64,000 nucleotides of DNA, from positions 18,805 through 82,804 of the forward strand of contig JAPLZK010000004.1 of assembly GCA_026395055.1 (NCBI GenBank), given 5' to 3'. The notes under the pieces are model-generated. The model was given only the letters and a program-made list of their open reading frames with translations, searched no databases and was not told the origin of the DNA. Below, in pieces: positions 10,449-13,917 of this stretch. Positions within the stretch are counted from its first letter, which is position 1; every line of letters starts with the position of its first letter. Source of the stretch: Candidatus Uhrbacteria bacterium. GTDB lineage: Bacteria > Patescibacteriota > Patescibacteriia > UBA9934 > GWF2-40-263. The translations under genes were made by a program, and so were the position numbers.

Positions 10449-10488
10449 TATTTCTTCGACACACAACTCTTTGATGAACTCAGAGTTG
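10449..10488 (+). repeat. Intergenic element TATTTCTTCGACACA + hairpin (copy 1)
   Basis: TATTTCTTCGACACAcAACTCTTTGatgaaCTCAGAGTTG; second copy at 11142-11183. Confidence 0.6.
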
Positions 10489-10618
10489 CGTCTCGAATCG
10501 AATAGAAATTTTATATCGACACATCGACGAAAGGGTTTACGAACGCTCACAAGTCACTTCACAAAAAACCAATGCCACACAGGGTGGCACGCAAGCAAGT
10601 TTTTTGGAGGAGGTGTCT

Positions 10619-11092
10619 ATGGGCGGTCCGACGTGTTTTCGTAAGGTGGAGATTCAGAAGTTTTCGGTACGGATGACGCGCAAAGGGTATGAGCGGTTCA
10701 TTTTGGAACAGTTTGTTCCAGAGTACGGCTTAGACGTTTTGCAACTCGGGTTTCTGTTCAATGGATTGTGTCAGGAAGAATTGGACGACGATCACGCTGC
10801 GTATGCTCGTATCTTTCCAGAGACTCTGCGTCTTTTGGCAAGGTGTGGCGCTGTGGGCTCCTTCGAGTATCACGAGCGTTCGAGCAACGAAGCGGATCAC
10901 GGAATGGAAACGCGTCGCAGGGATGAATCCCGGAAGCGCTACACGTTCTGTGCAGATGGAACCGTGCTTGAGACGTTGTTGTATGAGAGGAGTTTTTTCG
11001 AAACGATTTCGGTTGATCTTGAAGAGATCCCGATCATCGTAAACGGAAAGATTCTTTCTCCGTCACAGAGCGTCGCGGTCCTTCGTCGTTAG
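10619..11092 (+). CDS. Hypothetical protein (157 aa)
   Basis: GGAGGAGG SD 7 nt upstream of the ATG; no known motifs. Confidence 0.5.
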   Translation: MGGPTCFRKVEIQKFSVRMTRKGYERFILEQFVPEYGLDVLQLGFLFNGLCQEELDDDHAAYARIFPETLRLLARCGAVGSFEYHERSSNEADHGMETRRRDESRKRYTFCADGTVLETLLYERSFFETISVDLEEIPIIVNGKILSPSQSVAVLRR

Positions 11093-11141
11093 TGTGTGTG
11101 ATCTTTCCGGTTTCTTTCAGGAGCAAGCTTCTCTTGCTCCT

Positions 11142-11183
11142 GATATTTCTTCGACACATAACCCTTCAACAGGTTCAGGGTTG
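11142..11183 (+). repeat. Intergenic element TATTTCTTCGACACA + hairpin (copy 2)
   Basis: GATATTTCTTCGACACAtAACCCTTCAACaggttcAGGGTTG, preceded by the terminator-like hairpin GGAGCAAGCttctCTTGCTCC. Confidence 0.6.
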
Positions 11184-11224
11184 TGCTGCGAACGAATATG
11201 CCGCGTGCGGCTTCGGAGGTTCTC

Positions 11225-11383
11225 ATGAGTCCTTACATGGTGAAGCGGTGCGGTGTCATTCGTCATCTTCCGGTCGAGCGATCGACGGAAGTGCGAGCGG
11301 TACTGCCACCCACGCAGGCTCACCACCTGCAGGTTGTCATTCGAAGGAATGGCGAGATCATCAAACGGGTTTACGCCCATTGA
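11225..11383 (+). CDS. Hypothetical small protein (52 aa)
   Basis: GGAGG SD upstream of ATG 11225. Confidence 0.35.
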   Translation: MSPYMVKRCGVIRHLPVERSTEVRAVLPPTQAHHLQVVIRRNGEIIKRVYAH

Positions 11384-11449
11384 TGAGGTTCTTAACCAAG
11401 CGGGCATCTATGCCATGGACCTCATTGCCAAAAAATAGACGGGAGATCG

Positions 11450-11791
11450 ATGTCAAAATCGAAACCTTGGTGGACAGTCGTGTCTGATGAAGATCAGCAC
11501 AGGCTCGTGCATGATCATGCGAATGTGCGCATTTACAAGCGCTGCAGTCACGTGGCCCCAACGCCCGAGCACCTGCGCAGAGTGCGTGAGTGGGATTTGC
11601 GTCTCGCTCTGCGCCACATGGAAACCCTTTCCAAGGATGCGCAAGCGCAAATCTTGAATGGGATGTGGCCCGCATGCCTGCCAAAGAAGGCCTCGTTGAT
11701 CGCGCACGAGCGTGATCAGAAGAAACAAAAAGACAAGCTTGCGGAGAAATCCAAAAGTGCGTCGAAAGGTGGAGAACTGGTCGCGGCGTAA
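11450..11791 (+). CDS. Hypothetical protein (113 aa)
   Basis: GGGAGA SD; basic C-terminal tail. Confidence 0.45.
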   Translation: MSKSKPWWTVVSDEDQHRLVHDHANVRIYKRCSHVAPTPEHLRRVREWDLRLALRHMETLSKDAQAQILNGMWPACLPKKASLIAHERDQKKQKDKLAEKSKSASKGGELVAA

Positions 11792-11930
11792 GTCGTCGAC
11801 ACTGTATCAACCCTTGGCCGAATATCTTTTCGGCCCCTTGATCCCGATGCCTCGATATTTTTTTATCGAGACTTTGGAATCGAGGGTCGGGACTCCGACA
11901 ATCGACAAGATAAGATGTGTCGATTCGTCG

Positions 11931-11967
11931 GAGCTCTCGCATCGACTATGTCGAAGTGAGTGAGAGG
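11931..11967 (+). repeat. Island element CTCTCG-loop-GAGTGAGAGG (copy 1)
   Basis: gagCTCTCGcatcgactatgtcgaaGTGAGTGAGAGG; it lies in a hairpin-rich 240-bp intergenic region (11810-12050). Confidence 0.6.
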
Positions 11968-12049
11968 AACACAATTTACGGGGAAGAGAAAACCCCGAAG
12001 TGTAACCCATTTCGGTTTTTTGTTCGCAACAATCAACAAGGAGGTTTCC

Positions 12050-12679
12050 ATGGCTCGTGTGTGGAACTGTTTCAAGCGTATTCAAAAAGATGATCGTTCC
12101 ATCTATTTGCTTTGTGATGGTGGAATTCATGTGAAGAAAACGACGCATGCAGATGGTATGACTTCGTTTGAACTTCACGCCATGCATGGTGGTGGAATGC
12201 GTGAGAATGAAACATGTGATGCAGGAAGTCGTCGCGTCAAATTGTTTCCGCTTTTTTCGCACAGTCTCGTGAGTCGTTGTGTGCAAACGGATCAAGGTGT
12301 TCTGCAGACACACTGCATTTCGAATGAAAAAGTTCTTGCGTATTTCTATGATTTTCACTGTGGTGGAAATCAACATCGACACGGTTTCGAGTTCATGTGT
12401 TGGTCTGAGGAAAATCAGGGAAGGGGGAGGTGTTTCTGCTCCGGACACGACATCCCCAAACAACATTTGCGTTTCGAGACTCGGGAGAATTGGCGCGCGG
12501 GCGACAACAACGGGCGATACGAAACGTACACATGGACGATTGAGCCATGTGACGGATCGTGTCAGCCGCGTGCTCTGAAGCCGCTTTCGCATCGCGATCG
12601 TCGCGAACTCAATCGCATTCGTAGACCGTACGAAAAATACTGGTTCTACAATCCGAGGTATGCACAGAAAAACAGTTAG
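12050..12679 (+). CDS. Cys/His-rich hypothetical protein with CDGSC motif (209 aa)
   Basis: AAGGAGG SD; motif EPCDGSCQPR is shared with the 13245 gene (CDGSCKP, CDGSCC). Confidence 0.55.
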   Translation: MARVWNCFKRIQKDDRSIYLLCDGGIHVKKTTHADGMTSFELHAMHGGGMRENETCDAGSRRVKLFPLFSHSLVSRCVQTDQGVLQTHCISNEKVLAYFYDFHCGGNQHRHGFEFMCWSEENQGRGRCFCSGHDIPKQHLRFETRENWRAGDNNGRYETYTWTIEPCDGSCQPRALKPLSHRDRRELNRIRRPYEKYWFYNPRYAQKNS

Positions 12680-12690
12680 TTTAACAACTT

Positions 12691-12756
12691 GGCCGAGCGC
12701 ACGAACTCGCTCGGCCCCTTTACTCTCGTCTCGATCAAATCGATGCGAGTGAGAGG
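12691..12756 (+). repeat. Island element: GC hairpin + CCTTTTACTCTCG-loop-GAGTGAGAGG (copy 2)
   Basis: GGCCGAGCGcacgaactCGCTCGGCC hairpin, then CCTTTTACTCTCGtctcgatcaaatcgatgCGAGTGAGAGG. Confidence 0.65.
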
Positions 12757-12828
12757 AGTGGATCTTCGTCTCTTATTTCCTCGATGGCTTGATGCCAACG
12801 ATGCTTAGGGTGCATCGAGGAGAGAAGG

Positions 12829-13095
12829 ATGAAGACGGTAAAAAAGTTTGATTTGTATTTTGAGGACGCTGAGGGATATGGCGAGGATTCGTTGGAAGTG
12901 ACCGTGACTGCCGAGTCGTGGGGAAATGAAATTAATATTGATCTTGAATTTAGTCGTGTCGGACATCGGCAAGAGGAGATGGTTATTTCAGAAGATAGGT
13001 ATCTCAGCGCCAATGATCTTCTTCCAGAATTCACGATCGAAGAACTGACGGAGGAATTGAAACGTCGCGGATTCACAATCATTGAGGAGGAATAA
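12829..13095 (+). CDS. Acidic small hypothetical protein (88 aa)
   Basis: GGAGAGAAGG SD; highly acidic C-terminal half. Confidence 0.45.
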   Translation: MKTVKKFDLYFEDAEGYGEDSLEVTVTAESWGNEINIDLEFSRVGHRQEEMVISEDRYLSANDLLPEFTIEELTEELKRRGFTIIEEE

Positions 13096-13156
13096 GCTCT
13101 CTTGCCGAAGCGTCTCGCTTCGGCCACACGTTTGGAATCGAAAGAGTGACTTTGAC

Positions 13157-13224
13157 TCGGCTGTGCACACATCTCGCACAGCCCTTTTACTCTCGACATG
13201 ATGTGTATCGTGTTGAGTGAGAAG
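13157..13224 (+). repeat. Island element: GC hairpin + CTTTTACTCTCG-loop-GAGTGAGAAG (copy 3)
   Basis: GGCTGTGCacacatctcGCACAGCC hairpin, then CTTTTACTCTCGacatgatgtgtatcgtgttGAGTGAGAAG. Confidence 0.65.
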
Positions 13225-13244
13225 ACGTCACCCAGGAGGTCCCC

Positions 13245-13823
13245 ATGAGCGCACGTATTTTTCGTGAGTCGGATTCCGACTGTCTTGTCACGGAAGATTT
13301 CTGTGATGGGAGCATGCATTACTCCCGCACGCTGGCCTCTTTCTTGGATGACAAGAAGAGTATCCAGGTGGATCGCGCGTGCGATGGGTCGTGCAAACCG
13401 GAATCCCGGATGCGTGATCTGCGTGCGTTGCTTGCAAAAGCGCAGAGTGATTCTCTTGAGGAAGATGATGGTCGGATTCTTCCGACGGTCATCGAGCTTG
13501 ATGAGATCATGACATCGCTTTTCGCGATGGATCAGCCGATCAAGGGTTTCGAGTTTGCGTCCATGTACGCGAAACGAAATAGCCGATCGAGCGATTACTG
13601 CCTCGGAGCTCTCCATGTCCATTGGGACGAGATCTTCGATTGGCATCTCGAGCGCAAGCCCGAGACATTCGCCACACACAAGCTTTCCGCTTCGTTGTGT
13701 GATGGGTCGTGTTGCCGCACCACAAAGCTGACTCGCGGCGAAAAGCGTTCTGTGTGCAAGCAAGAACGTGAACGCAAAGCGTGGGAAGCAGAGTGGAGCG
13801 CAAAGTACGGCACGTCCGTTTAA
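13245..13823 (+). CDS. Hypothetical protein with two CDGSC motifs (192 aa), paralog of the 12050 gene
   Basis: AGGAGG SD; RACDGSCKPE and SLCDGSCCRT. Confidence 0.55.
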   Translation: MSARIFRESDSDCLVTEDFCDGSMHYSRTLASFLDDKKSIQVDRACDGSCKPESRMRDLRALLAKAQSDSLEEDDGRILPTVIELDEIMTSLFAMDQPIKGFEFASMYAKRNSRSSDYCLGALHVHWDEIFDWHLERKPETFATHKLSASLCDGSCCRTTKLTRGEKRSVCKQERERKAWEAEWSAKYGTSV

Positions 13824-13917
13824 CCTCTTCCCGACGATCGCTCTCGCGACCGTCGGTTTTTTGTATCTGCTATACTATGCACAACGTGCGGGGTCAGGGG
13901 ACCCCGCCTATAATCCT

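What the first reader, a model, noticed from the sequence alone, without database searches (positions are those of the whole stretch)
10449..13865. Island-1 array of small plus-strand unknown ORFs, each preceded by a GC hairpin + CTCTCG-loop-GAGTGAGAGG element
Six ORFs of 52-209 aa with strong SD sequences follow rsr. Three intergenic regions (11931-11967, 12691-12756, 13157-13224) each contain a terminator-like GC hairpin and then CCTTTTACTCTCG-(variable palindromic loop)-GAGTGAGAGG about 30-100 nt before the next start. Two others carry TATTTCTTCGACACA + hairpin (10449, 11142). A conserved punctuation element between every cassette-like gene is reminiscent of integron attC / VCR arrays or phage morons, yet no integrase is present. 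The GTGAGAGG motif is shared with island 2.
Basis: seen in the sequence. Interest (0 to 1): 0.65.

Follow-up and report, generated by a model that had tools for sequence, protein, structure and literature searches.

The report
Structured RNA spacers punctuating ORFan gene arrays
In a Candidatus Uhrbacteria genome, a run of small unknown genes after the Ro60 gene is separated by conserved three-part RNA-type hairpin modules that recur in relatives around a changing set of genes. They look like portable expression punctuation that also lets genes be shuffled, and they are not integron recombination sites.

Summary
Three CTCTCG-N18/19-GAGTGAGA elements ("type B", 11934, 12723, 13190) and two TATTTCTTCGACACA elements ("type A", 10449, 11144) sit where stated.

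Eight syntenic loci of related Candidatus Uhrbacteria show the same layout between small same-strand ORFs:
- a GC hairpin (hp1) with an interrupted U tract;
- a conserved irregular helix, type A or B/C, with a variable top;
- often a third hairpin, then GGAGG-N5-7-ATG.

About 50 copies give strong covariation: 92-93% of cells paired against 30-52% in slid controls, with 9-10 compensatory pairs per family. G·U wobbles are conserved. The gene-sense strand folds better than the antisense, and every copy is co-oriented with its genes. These point to RNA, not attC.

attC core sites are absent (0/50 with both). No recombinase lies in the window or in seven neighbourhoods. No sigma-70 promoter lies in the spacers. 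Rfam has no match.

Gene content differs between relatives, and homology breakpoints fall in the modules. Array genes are GC3-rich and SD-led in an almost SD-less host.

Best reading: intercistronic RNA punctuation modules of a single-promoter operon that also mediate cassette shuffling, like T4 PeSLs. The exact biochemical role is inferred. These are new RNA motifs, a new variant of a known kind.

The parts
7271..7299 (+). CCCTTGACA-N12-TATGATAG box, paired with an inverted copy at 7128-7156. Candidate promoter/operator at the head of the whole locus (context).
   Evidence: Inverted repeat I1. The same box occurs in L010. The only promoter-like signals of the locus cluster at 7107-7187. The function is inferred.
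7300..8790 (+). ORF-free, highly conserved leader or ncRNA. It contains a conserved ~90-nt hairpin at 7565-7650 and ends in a strong hairpin+T6 terminator at 8764-8790.
   Evidence: No ORFs. Positions 7900-8200 are 90% identical to L003, against 67-75% for flanking genes. The hairpin is kept in 7 loci with some covariation. Terminator. No Rfam match.
8832..10385 (+). rsr (Ro60 orthologue), first gene of the array in this genome.
   Evidence: Pfam vWA_Ro60 2e-16 and TROVE 2.8e-10; PHROG 850 1e-30. It is absent from the same locus in L007, L010 and L135.
10418..10509 (+). Spacer module 1: hp1 hairpin (10418-10447) followed by a type A helix (10444-10509).
   Evidence: Terminator-like hairpin. 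R2 model hit of 38 bits. Fold z = -6.5.
10619..11092 (+). o1, 157 aa, an ORFan.
   Evidence: GGAGGAGG before the ATG. No family in Pfam, PHROGs, PADLOC or NCBIfam. No homologue among 1.84e9 representatives apart from itself.
11117..11204 (+). Spacer module 2: hp1 (11117-11143) followed by a type A helix (11139-11204).
   Evidence: 44.5 bits; z = -4.5.
11225..11383 (+). o2, 52 aa, a basic protein conserved in relatives.
   Evidence: tblastn matches of 55-69% identity in 5 loci. P0018-P0021. The AF2 model has low confidence, pLDDT 56.
11450..11791 (+). o3, 113 aa. The C-terminal ~100 aa are conserved in 8 loci. The N-terminus and the usual upstream module were lost by a deletion in this genome.
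   Evidence: and the spacer comparison.
11816..11967 (+). Spacer module 3: hp1 (11816-11835), CCTTGA, a unique 92-nt structured insertion (11842-11933), then the type B core (11934-11967).
   Evidence: (z = -6.4). Partial R1 hit.
12050..12679 (+). o4, 209 aa, a Cys-rich CDGSC-motif protein and distant paralogue of o6.
   Evidence: 22% identity to o6, E = 4e-5. 77% identical homologue in L138.
12691..12761 (+). Spacer module 4: hp1 (12691-12716) followed by a type B helix (12713-12761).
   Evidence: (57.5 bits; z = -4.1).
12829..13095 (+). o5, 88 aa, acidic, an ORFan.
   Evidence: No family. No tblastn match in 9 related loci.
13159..13229 (+). Spacer module 5: hp1 (13159-13183) followed by a type B helix (13180-13229). 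An extra hairpin sits upstream at 13104-13124.
   Evidence: 57.4 bits; z = -5.1.
13245..13823 (+). o6, 192 aa, a CDGSC-motif family with a confident fold that matches nothing.
   Evidence: 16 homologues at 51-91% identity. AF2 pLDDT 92.7. No PDB or BFVD match.
13831..13865 (+). Array-terminal intrinsic terminator: a hairpin followed by uninterrupted T6.
   Evidence: z = -3.9. The last gene of the arrays in L005, L007 and L008 ends the same way.
30347..38252 (-). Island 2, a second array of ~13 small minus-strand ORFans. It has its own spacer variants, including three type-A-like helices (35667-35732, 36845-36910, 37594-37659). It has one strong promoter (38252-38224) and a leader hairpin+U5.

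Best explanation
**What they are.** The repeats are modular intercistronic RNA elements of a long operon driven by one upstream promoter. They are not DNA recombination sites.

**Anatomy of each spacer.**
1. hp1: a GC-rich hairpin of 8-9 bp with variable sequence, followed by an interrupted U tract (CCUUUAC or CCUUUCUUC). This makes it a weak, terminator-like 3' hairpin for the upstream cistron.
2. A conserved irregular helix whose 5' strand is that same U-rich tract.
   - Type B/C: CCUUUACUCUCG...UUGAGUGAGAGG, about 17 bp plus a variable top, with a bulged A and a U·U mismatch.
   - Type A: UUCGA/UCGAA, a 2x2 loop, then CAUCAC/GUGGUG.
3. Often a small hairpin abutting a strong GGAGG-N5-7-AUG.

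**How they most likely work.** In the transcript the modules delimit cistrons. hp1 pauses or partly terminates transcription and protects the upstream 3' end. The helix folds away the U-rich linker and an SD-like purine tract. It probably also gives a processing site and/or a stable 5' end. The strong SD then gives each unrelated ORF independent translation in a host that otherwise hardly uses SD.

**Evolutionary role.** The modules are the only sequence shared by otherwise unrelated genes, so they are also where recombination gains, loses and reorders cassettes, as PeSL cassettes do in T4-type phages.

**Shown versus inferred.** Shown: the structure, strand specificity, modularity, conservation, absence of promoters and recombinases, and mosaic junctions. 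Inferred: the actual biochemical step, whether attenuation, RNase cleavage or end protection.
For: **Structure**
- Type B/C, 27 copies: 92.3% of cells paired against 36-52% when the partner is slid. 10 pairs show compensatory change in 49 cells, and 0/500 shuffles reach this.
- RNAalifold finds the same helix independently.
- Type A, 23 copies: 92.9% paired against 30-52%, with 9 compensatory pairs.

**Strand**
- Conserved G·U wobbles: U·G in 25/27 and G·U in 15/27 type B copies; U·G in 22/23 type A copies.
- The sense strand is more stable than the antisense in 26/28 type B copies (mean -18.2 vs -12.7 kcal/mol, p = 1e-5) and in 19/23 type A copies (p = 8e-4).
- Every copy is co-oriented with its genes, including in the minus-strand island 2.

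**Position**
- All 52 copies have hp1 immediately 5' of them. Mean ΔG is -12 kcal/mol, with 4.3-4.6 T in the next 9 nt.
- Array-terminal genes instead end in a hairpin followed by T6-7.

**Promoters**
- None lies in the spacers: 0 in the 5.8-kb L004 array against 3.5 expected, and none in the window's arrays.
- Host promoters are canonical TTGACx-17-TATxAT.
- One strong promoter heads island 2.

**Modularity**
- The same gene, o6, is preceded by type B, by type A or by the leader hairpin in different genomes.
- The same hp1+B module follows different genes.
- Covariance models hit only inside arrays across 148 kb, and they hit two unseen copies in L138.

**Shuffling**
- Arrays hold from 4 to 10 or more ORFs, with different content, between the same flanks of TrmB and o7/Smr/RuvA.
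- Homology blocks end at the modules.
- In L004, o6 sits between two ~90% identical copies of hp1 plus the 5' half of type B.

**Foreign-type expression**
- GC3 is 0.57 (island 1) and 0.72 (island 2), against 0.44 for host genes.
- GGAGG precedes 6/7 array genes. An SD precedes 1/27 host genes at the annotated start.
- The host encodes RNase J, a 5' exonuclease. By established knowledge, structured 5' ends stabilise mRNA against such an enzyme.
Against: - There are no expression data. Cleavage, termination efficiency and transcript ends are all untested.
- The type A helix in its short form (11 bp plus a 2x2 loop) is too short for a classical RNase III site, so one processing enzyme may not explain both types.
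- The purine tract is the real SD in only a minority of copies, so SD sequestration is not general.
- If hp1 hairpins were efficient terminators, downstream genes would need antitermination. That is a different mechanism.
- Strong primary-sequence conservation of the helix bases would equally fit a specific protein-binding site of unknown kind.
- Covariation counts come from related sequences, and the structure was derived from the same set, although the slid controls and RNAalifold agree.
Confidence: 0.55

Rival explanations
1. Processive antitermination. The hp1 hairpins are genuine terminators, and the arrays are expressed only when RNA polymerase is made terminator-resistant. The type A/B helices would then be nut/put-like RNA sites that load or renew the modification at each cassette. 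The leader (conserved hairpin at 7565-7650 plus terminator at 8764-8790) would be the switch.
For: - Both arrays have one upstream promoter, then a leader ending in a strong hairpin plus U run, then terminator-like hairpins in every spacer with no internal promoters.
- The leader hairpin is the best-conserved piece of all loci, at 83-94% identity, and is kept even where the leader is short, as in L138.
- Lambda Q/tR' and N/nut, and HK022 put, have this logic (established knowledge).
Against: - No NusG paralogue or N/Q-like factor has been identified. o2, a small basic protein, is only a guess, and its model is poor.
- Known systems need one site per operon, not one per gene.
- The hp1 U tracts are interrupted, so they may simply be weak terminators.
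Confidence: 0.15
2. Integron-like recombination sites. The helices are attC analogues, folded as single-stranded DNA and cut by a recombinase encoded elsewhere, so that the array is a cassette array lacking a nearby integrase (CALIN-like).
For: - Same-strand cassette-like ORFs with variable content between relatives.
- Conserved helix bases with variable palindromic tops.
- GTTGAGT, which fits GTTRRRY, in 9/27 type B copies.
- hp1 plus the 5' half of B is duplicated on both sides of o6 in L004, and the 3' half of B travels with o4 in L138.
Against: - RYYYAAC occurs in 1/27 copies. Both cores occur together in 0/27 type B and 0/23 type A copies.
- The elements are 35-50 nt, against 57-141 for attC.
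- G·U wobbles make the gene-sense strand the better folder, whereas the bottom strand of attC is the active one (established knowledge).
- Two or three unrelated helix types are interchangeable.
- Junctions are not at a single position.
- No tyrosine recombinase or transposase lies in the 64-kb window or in 7 neighbourhoods.
Confidence: 0.08
3. Selfish repeated palindromes (REP/BIME-, BOX-, Correia- or MITE-like) that have colonised the spacers and have no dedicated function.
For: - Short imperfect palindromes in intergenic regions of operons.
- Several sequence classes.
- One copy, at 11842-11933, is itself interrupted by an inserted structured 92-mer.
Against: - All ~50 copies are in one orientation relative to the genes and at one fixed place: directly after hp1 and 10-80 nt before an SD.
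- None lies elsewhere in 148 kb searched.
- No target-site duplications, and no RAYT or transposase.
- Only two GTDB species carry the type A core.
Confidence: 0.05
4. DNA-level signals: unconventional promoters or operators, for example sites for the flanking TrmB-family regulators, upstream of each gene.
For: - TTGACT/TTTACT directly after hp1 resembles a -35 box.
- TrmB-family genes flank every locus.
- The helices are inverted repeats.
Against: - No -10 box lies at any spacing. The region 17 nt downstream is the variable stem.
- Host promoters are canonical.
- Compensatory changes and G·U pairs indicate selection on pairing in one strand rather than on a duplex sequence.
Confidence: 0.07

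Closest known systems
PeSL (promoter-early stem-loop) regulatory cassettes in the hyperplastic regions of T4-type phages (Arbiol et al. 2010, PMC2839356; Comeau et al. 2014, PMC4122927)
   Same: Small composite regulatory cassettes containing a terminator stem-loop. They are repeated between small, mostly unknown, non-essential same-strand ORFs. They are the only homology shared by otherwise unrelated genes, and they sit at the breakpoints of insertions, deletions and replacements between close relatives.
   Different: PeSLs carry a strong sigma-70-like early promoter; these spacers have none. Here the stem-loop is followed by a second, covarying RNA helix and a strong SD. The host is a CPR bacterial chromosome, not a phage. 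No mini-circles have been shown.
Integron attC sites / CALIN arrays
   Same: Arrays of promoterless, co-oriented cassettes separated by imperfect palindromes with conserved ends and variable centres. Expression comes from one upstream promoter.
   Different: The R''/R' cores are absent. The elements are shorter. The sense strand, not the bottom strand, is the better-folding one. Several interchangeable element types exist. There is no integrase and no fixed crossover point.
RNase III processing sites between the early genes of phage T7 (established knowledge: Dunn and Studier)
   Same: Conserved irregular helices of roughly 20 bp placed between cistrons of one long transcript. They leave the upstream mRNA with a 3' hairpin and free the downstream ribosome-binding region. 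The type B/C helix (17 bp plus a variable top, with a bulge and a mismatch) has this size and shape.
   Different: Cleavage is untested. The short form of type A is too short for a classical site. There is no sequence similarity, and an extra hp1 hairpin precedes each helix.
Intergenic repeat families that fold in mRNA (E. coli REP/BIME, pneumococcal BOX, Neisseria Correia elements)
   Same: Repeated intergenic palindromes that can stabilise upstream mRNA or be cut by RNase III.
   Different: Those families are genome-wide, occur in both orientations and are transposase- or MITE-related. These elements are confined to two arrays, strictly co-oriented and fixed in position.
Rfam families
   Same: None.
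   Different: No family matched the spacers at gathering score across the window, or at E <= 5 across 6400-14000. The only sub-threshold hit, at 11115-11149, is a generic hairpin.

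Membership tests
Integron attC site | R' core GTTRRRY at the 3' end and inverse core RYYYAAC at the 5' end | tested here: not met
   GTTRRRY occurs in 9/27 type B/C copies and RYYYAAC in 1/27. Both in attC order: 0/27. Type A: 0/23.
Integron attC site | Bottom strand (opposite to the cassette ORF) is the structured, recombined strand | tested here: not met
   The sense strand folds better in 26/28 and 19/23 copies. Conserved G·U pairs would be A·C mismatches on the bottom strand.
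Integron attC site | Integron integrase (tyrosine recombinase) with attI/Pc nearby, or at least in the genome | tested here: not met
   None lies in the 64-kb window or in 7 related neighbourhoods of up to 20 kb. The rest of the genome could not be tested.
Integron attC site | Length 57-141 nt with extrahelical bases and an unpaired central spacer | tested here: not met
   The helices span 35-50 nt (type B/C) or about 45-60 nt (type A). The irregularities are a bulged A and a U·U mismatch on the top strand.
PeSL cassette (T4-type phages) | Stem-loop acting as a transcription terminator | tested here: inconclusive
   hp1 is present before 52/52 elements and is terminator-like, but its U tract is interrupted. 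Termination itself cannot be tested with these tools.
PeSL cassette (T4-type phages) | Strong sigma-70-like early promoter in the cassette | tested here: not met
   No promoter-like site lies in the spacers of three arrays.
PeSL cassette (T4-type phages) | Located at the breakpoints of gene gain, loss or replacement between close relatives | tested here: met
   Homology blocks end at the modules. hp1 plus the 5' half of B is duplicated around o6 in L004. The same gene occurs behind different modules.
REP/BIME (RAYT-associated) | High copy number across the genome, both orientations, cognate RAYT transposase | tested here: not met
   Hits occur only inside arrays and all are co-oriented. No Y1 transposase lies in the window.
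RNase III processing site (T7-type) | About two turns of irregular dsRNA between cistrons | tested here: inconclusive
   Type B/C meets this: 17 conserved pairs plus a 3-8 bp variable top. Short type A copies do not.
RNase III processing site (T7-type) | Cleavage by RNase III | not testable with these tools
   This needs RNA end mapping or an in vitro assay.
Intrinsic terminator | GC hairpin followed by an uninterrupted U tract | tested here: inconclusive
   Internal hp1 hairpins have 4.3-4.6 T in the next 9 nt, interrupted by C or A. Only the array-terminal hairpins and the leader hairpins have T5-7.
Any Rfam 15 family | Covariance-model match | tested here: not met

The most novel reading that the evidence does not exclude
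CPR bacteria of the Uhrbacteria clade maintain a gene-cassette system that works without an integron integrase. Portable RNA/DNA hairpin modules (hp1 plus helix A or B) would serve two roles at once. They would be the expression junction of each ORFan cassette in a terminator-studded operon that is opened by a leader-encoded antitermination switch. They would also be the crossover site through which cassettes are captured and reshuffled. The whole system would be physically coupled to a Ro60 gene and a 1.5-kb ncRNA that is conserved more strongly than the surrounding housekeeping genes.
Probability: 0.15. Interest if true: 0.8.

Novelty: new variant of a known kind. Interest (0 to 1): 0.58.

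Why it matters
CPR/Patescibacteria genomes are small, mostly uncultured and rich in unknown genes. How they acquire and express novel genes is largely unknown.

This locus shows a defined, testable architecture: arrays of ORFans with foreign-type composition and strong SD sites, inside a host that barely uses SD. The genes are stitched together by two or three new families of covarying RNA helices.

If the modules are expression punctuation that doubles as a recombination substrate, they would be a chromosomal, bacterial counterpart of the PeSL system of T4 phages. They would also offer a handle for finding variable ORFan arrays in other CPR genomes.

The elements are compact, strongly supported new RNA motifs that could be added to RNA family databases.

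The adjacent ncRNA-rsr unit may reveal the Y-RNA partner of a CPR Ro60.

Tried and rejected
- **DNA-pattern scans of IMG/VR.** The type B pattern (15 fixed bases) gave only single chance matches. The type A pattern gave two chance matches inside high-GC coding DNA.
- **Genome-collection scan for the type A core.** Only two Candidatus Uhrbacteria MAGs matched. The family is narrow, and the scan could not test other CPR lineages.
- **Related-locus searches with the o6 profile.** IMG/VR gave none. JGI metagenomes gave 3 loci, of which one duplicated L003.
- **blastn of the array against phage and plasmid collections.** No match.
- **Protein-family searches on the six ORFs and island-2 ORFs.** Pfam, PHROGs, PADLOC and NCBIfam gave nothing, apart from a sub-threshold Phage_scaffold hit on one island-2 protein.
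- **o2 structure.** pLDDT was 56, so it was not used.
- **Protein search with o3.** It returned only itself, because this genome's o3 has a replaced N-terminus.
- **SD-sequestration idea.** The purine tract is the functional SD in only a few copies, so this was rejected as the general mechanism.
- **Sigma-70 promoter idea.** With TTGACT/TTTACT as the -35 box, no -10 box is present.
- **T-arm or tRNA mimicry by GGTTCGAA in type A.** No flanking T stem exists.
- **Island-2 CCTCTCAC...TGAGAG block as a hairpin.** It is not more stable than shuffles.
- **The 92-nt insertion as a MITE.** No second copy exists anywhere.

Full report
**Source and setting**

The window is a chromosomal segment of a CPR bacterium. 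The o2 product is 100% identical to a protein of an NCBI MAG named Candidatus Uhrbacteria bacterium (NTX72_04770, 339-kb contig). All relatives of o6 come from Uhrbacteria MAGs or groundwater metagenomes.

The window carries RNase P RNA, three tRNAs and housekeeping genes: IleRS, RuvA, UvrA, RNase J, L19 and glycosyltransferases. Background G+C is about 43-45%. Richer islands lie at 8-14 kb and 30-38 kb.

**Checking the observation**

- CTCTCG-N{14,24}-GTGAGA occurs three times in 64 kb, at 11934, 12723 and 13190, all on the + strand. Shuffles give 0.14 expected.
- TATTTCTTCGACACA occurs twice exactly, at 10449 and 11144. It lies inside a 58-nt repeat whose hairpin differs by a compensatory change.
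- All five regions fold much better than shuffles, z = -4.1 to -6.5.
- The six ORFs are o1 10619-11092, o2 11225-11383, o3 11450-11791, o4 12050-12679, o5 12829-13095 and o6 13245-13823. They follow rsr (8832-10385, Ro60: vWA_Ro60 and TROVE).
- None of the six matches Pfam, PHROGs, PADLOC or NCBIfam.

Two corrections are needed. The o2-o3 spacer has no element. The GTGAGAGG strings of island 2 lie on the strand opposite to that island's genes and do not form a significant hairpin.

**Relatives**

Contexts of o6 and o2 homologues gave eight informative syntenic loci: L003/L134/L136/L139-141, L004, L005, L007, L008, L010, L135 and L138.

All share the frame TrmB-family regulator, ORF-free region, array, o7 homologue, Smr, RuvA. 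The array itself differs:
- It holds from 4 to at least 10 small + strand ORFs.
- rsr is present in some loci and absent in others (L007, L010, L135). DUF6847 occupies its place in L008 and L010.
- o2, o3, o4 and o6 recur.
- o1 has no homologue among 1.84 billion representatives, and o5 has none in the loci.
- o4 and o6 are distant paralogues with repeated CDGSC motifs.
- The o6 family gives a confident AlphaFold model (pLDDT 92.7) with no match in PDB or BFVD. These are therefore real proteins of unknown fold and function.

**Anatomy of the spacers**

Nearly every spacer in every array has the same three parts.

1. hp1 is a GC hairpin of 8-9 bp with variable sequence. It lies directly 5' of all 52 elements examined. 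Mean ΔG is -12 kcal/mol, and it is followed by CCUUUAC or CCUUUCUUC, with 4.3-4.6 T in 9 nt.
2. A conserved helix begins with that U-rich tract.
   - In type B/C (27 copies, alignment A1) it is a 17-pair helix, CCUUU.C.CUCGAC... / ...GUUGAG.G.AGAGG. It has a bulged A, a U·U mismatch and a variable apical stem.
   - In type A (23 copies, A2) it is UUCGA/UCGAA, a 2x2 internal loop, CAUCAC/GUGGUG and a variable top.
3. Many spacers add a small hairpin of variable sequence abutting (C/U)GGAGGUUCCCAUG.

The last gene of each array ends differently, in a hairpin followed by T6-7.

**Evidence that the helices are real and act in one strand**

| Measure | Type B/C | Type A |
|---|---|---|
| Cells forming standard pairs | 92.3% | 92.9% |
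| Same, with partner slid | 36-52% | 30-52% |
| Pairs with compensatory change | 10 (49 cells) | 9 |
| Shuffles reaching the covariation score | 0/500 | 0/500 |
| Source | | |

- RNAalifold predicts both helices on its own.
- An outer type B pair switches C-G / U-A / A-U in 12/11/3 copies.
- Conserved wobbles would be A·C mismatches on the other strand: U·G in 25/27 and G·U in 15/27 type B copies, and U·G in 22/23 type A copies.
- Accordingly, the sense strand is more stable than the antisense in 26/28 type B/C copies (mean -18.2 vs -12.7 kcal/mol, p = 1.4e-5) and in 19/23 type A copies (p = 8.5e-4).
- Covariance models built from the two alignments hit only inside arrays in 148 kb of window plus loci, always on the gene strand. 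This includes three type-A-like copies on the minus strand in island 2.
- The models also found two copies in a locus not used for training (L138, 39 and 36 bits).
- Rfam has nothing comparable.

**What the modules are not**

They are not attC sites:
- The two core sites are never present together, 0/27 and 0/23.
- The better-folding strand is the wrong one.
- Different helix types are interchangeable.
- No recombinase or transposase lies in the window or in seven neighbourhoods.

They are not REP- or MITE-like. They have a single orientation, a fixed position and no copies outside the arrays.

They are not sigma-70 promoters:
- The host uses canonical TTGACx-17-TATxAT before its tRNA and RNase P genes.
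- The spacers contain no such site. There are 0 in the 5.8-kb L004 array, where shuffles give 3.5.
- The stretch where a -10 box would lie is the variable stem.

They are not of recognisable phage or plasmid origin.

**Operon logic**

Island 2 (30.3-38.0 kb, minus strand, about 13 ORFans, inserted between glycosyltransferase genes) has one strong promoter: TTGACA-17-TATAGT with TG, at 38252-38224. It is followed by a leader with an extended hairpin plus U5, and then by the array.

Island 1 has promoter-like signals only at 7107-7299. They include a conserved inverted pair CCCTTGACA-N12-TATGATAG. Then comes a 1.5-kb ORF-free conserved region ending in a strong terminator at 8764-8790, immediately before rsr.

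Both arrays therefore look like single long transcription units in which every spacer carries a terminator-like hairpin. Downstream genes are conserved (o6 is the last gene here), so these hairpins must be leaky or overridden.

**Foreign-type expression signals**

| Feature | Array genes | Host genes (n = 27) |
|---|---|---|
| GC3 | 0.57 (island 1), 0.72 (island 2) | 0.44 |
| GGAGG at proper spacing before the start | 6/7 island-1 genes | 1/27 at the annotated start |
| Any 4-mer SD before an in-frame start in the first 50 codons | not computed | 6/27 |

Several host genes have a TATAAT-like box a few bases before the ATG.

The island is also more conserved between this genome and L003 than the flanking genes are. 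The ncRNA is 90% identical and rsr 88.7%, against 67-75% for the flanks.

**Modules as junctions of gene shuffling**

- Nucleotide homology between arrays comes in blocks that stop at the modules.
- o6 is preceded by type B in the window, L003, L004 and L008, by type A in L005, and by the leader hairpin in L138.
- The hp1 GGCCGAGC...GCTCGGCC plus type B follows at least four different genes.
- In L004, o6 lies between two ~90% identical copies of aacc-hp1 plus the 5' half of B. Each is joined to a different 3' half.
- In L138, the 3' half of B and its downstream leader travel with o4 while hp1 and the 5' half are missing.
- The junctions are not at one nucleotide position. This fits homologous or illegitimate exchange rather than site-specific cutting.

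**Interpretation**

The supported core, at about 0.55, is that these are RNA-level intercistronic modules that punctuate a long operon and double as recombination substrates. This is analogous to the PeSL cassettes of T4-type phages (PMC2839356, PMC4122927) but without their promoter.

The specific biochemical role is inferred. The coaxial pair of hp1 and the helix buries the U-rich linker and an SD-like purine tract. Type B/C has the size and irregularity of a T7-type RNase III site. The host has RNase J, against which structured 5' ends are protective.

A processive-antitermination reading, with the leader switch and the A/B helices as nut/put-like sites, is the main rival at about 0.15. An integron-like system with an unseen recombinase remains possible at low probability, about 0.08.

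**Verdict**

The finding is real, recurrent and conserved, and it defines new RNA motif families in a poorly known phylum. It is a new variant of a known kind of system, not an attC array.

Noticed in passing
window 7300-8790 (+): A 1.5-kb ORF-free region between TrmB and rsr is conserved more strongly than the neighbouring proteins: 90% identity to L003 in 7900-8200, against 67-75% for flanking genes. It has GGGGTTTCATCA repeated three times and ends in a strong terminator at 8764-8790. Its middle part (about 7665-8400) is missing in loci that lack rsr (L007, L010, L135), so it may encode the Y-RNA-like partner of this Ro60. There is no Rfam match.
   Followed up: partly
window 7565-7650 (+); L138 1060-1150: A ~90-nt long hairpin with an invariant apical TTGGTTCCCCAGCCAA. 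It is the best-conserved piece of all loci (83-94% identity) and shows a few compensatory pairs. In L138 it sits directly in front of the first array gene. It is a candidate leader regulatory RNA.
   Followed up: partly
window 7128-7156 and 7271-7299: Inverted pair of CCCTTGACA-N12-TATGATAG boxes, also present in L010. The 12-nt spacing differs from the 17 nt of the host's tRNA and RNase P promoters. These are possible divergent promoters or an operator for the adjacent TrmB-family regulator.
   Followed up: no
whole window, host genes versus islands: Host genes almost lack Shine-Dalgarno sequences (1/27), and several have a TATAAT-like box 5-12 nt before the ATG, which suggests leaderless mRNAs. 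Island genes have strong GGAGG and GC3 of 0.57-0.72, against 0.44 for the host.
   Followed up: partly
window 30347-38252 (-): Island 2 is about 13 ORFans, several with N-terminal hydrophobic or lipoprotein-like segments. It is inserted between glycosyltransferase genes of an envelope polysaccharide cluster. It has one strong promoter at 38252-38224 and a leader hairpin+U5. It also has its own repeated spacer blocks: CCTCTCACnTAGCTTCGCGCrAATGAGAG...CTCTTTGAAA in four copies, and CTTTCTCCCCTTCGCGAAACGGTCG in three copies.
   Followed up: partly
window 12050-12679 and 13245-13823; L008 1237-1761: o4, o6 and a third paralogue in L008 form a Cys-rich family with repeated CDGSC motifs. The beta-rich AlphaFold model is confident (pLDDT 92.7) and matches nothing in PDB or BFVD.
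   Followed up: yes
window 11842-11933 (+): A unique 92-nt insertion made of two hairpins splits the type B element of the o3-o4 spacer right after CCTTGA. No other copy exists in the window or in the loci.
   Followed up: yes
window 11384-11584 (+): Relative to L003 and L004, this genome has a deletion that removed the hp1 plus type A module and the 5' part of o3. The result is a shorter o3 with a new N-terminus and only a weak SD.
   Followed up: partly
window 42048-42602 (-): The RNase P RNA match spans 555 nt against a 367-position model (142.8 bits), so the gene carries large insertions.
   Followed up: no
L007 10001-10222; L007 719-1618; L139 1-414: One related array contains a PhdYeFM-type antitoxin gene. 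Bro-N domain genes, which are often phage-associated, lie upstream of the TrmB genes in two loci.
   Followed up: no
window 11975-12021 and 10570-10605 (+): Some array genes (o4, o1, and also rsr) have an additional hairpin followed by a T6 run immediately 5' of their SD (UUUUUUGGAGG). The same U-run-before-SD is seen in L005, L010, L135 and L138. It may be an attenuator or a U-rich translation enhancer.
   Followed up: no
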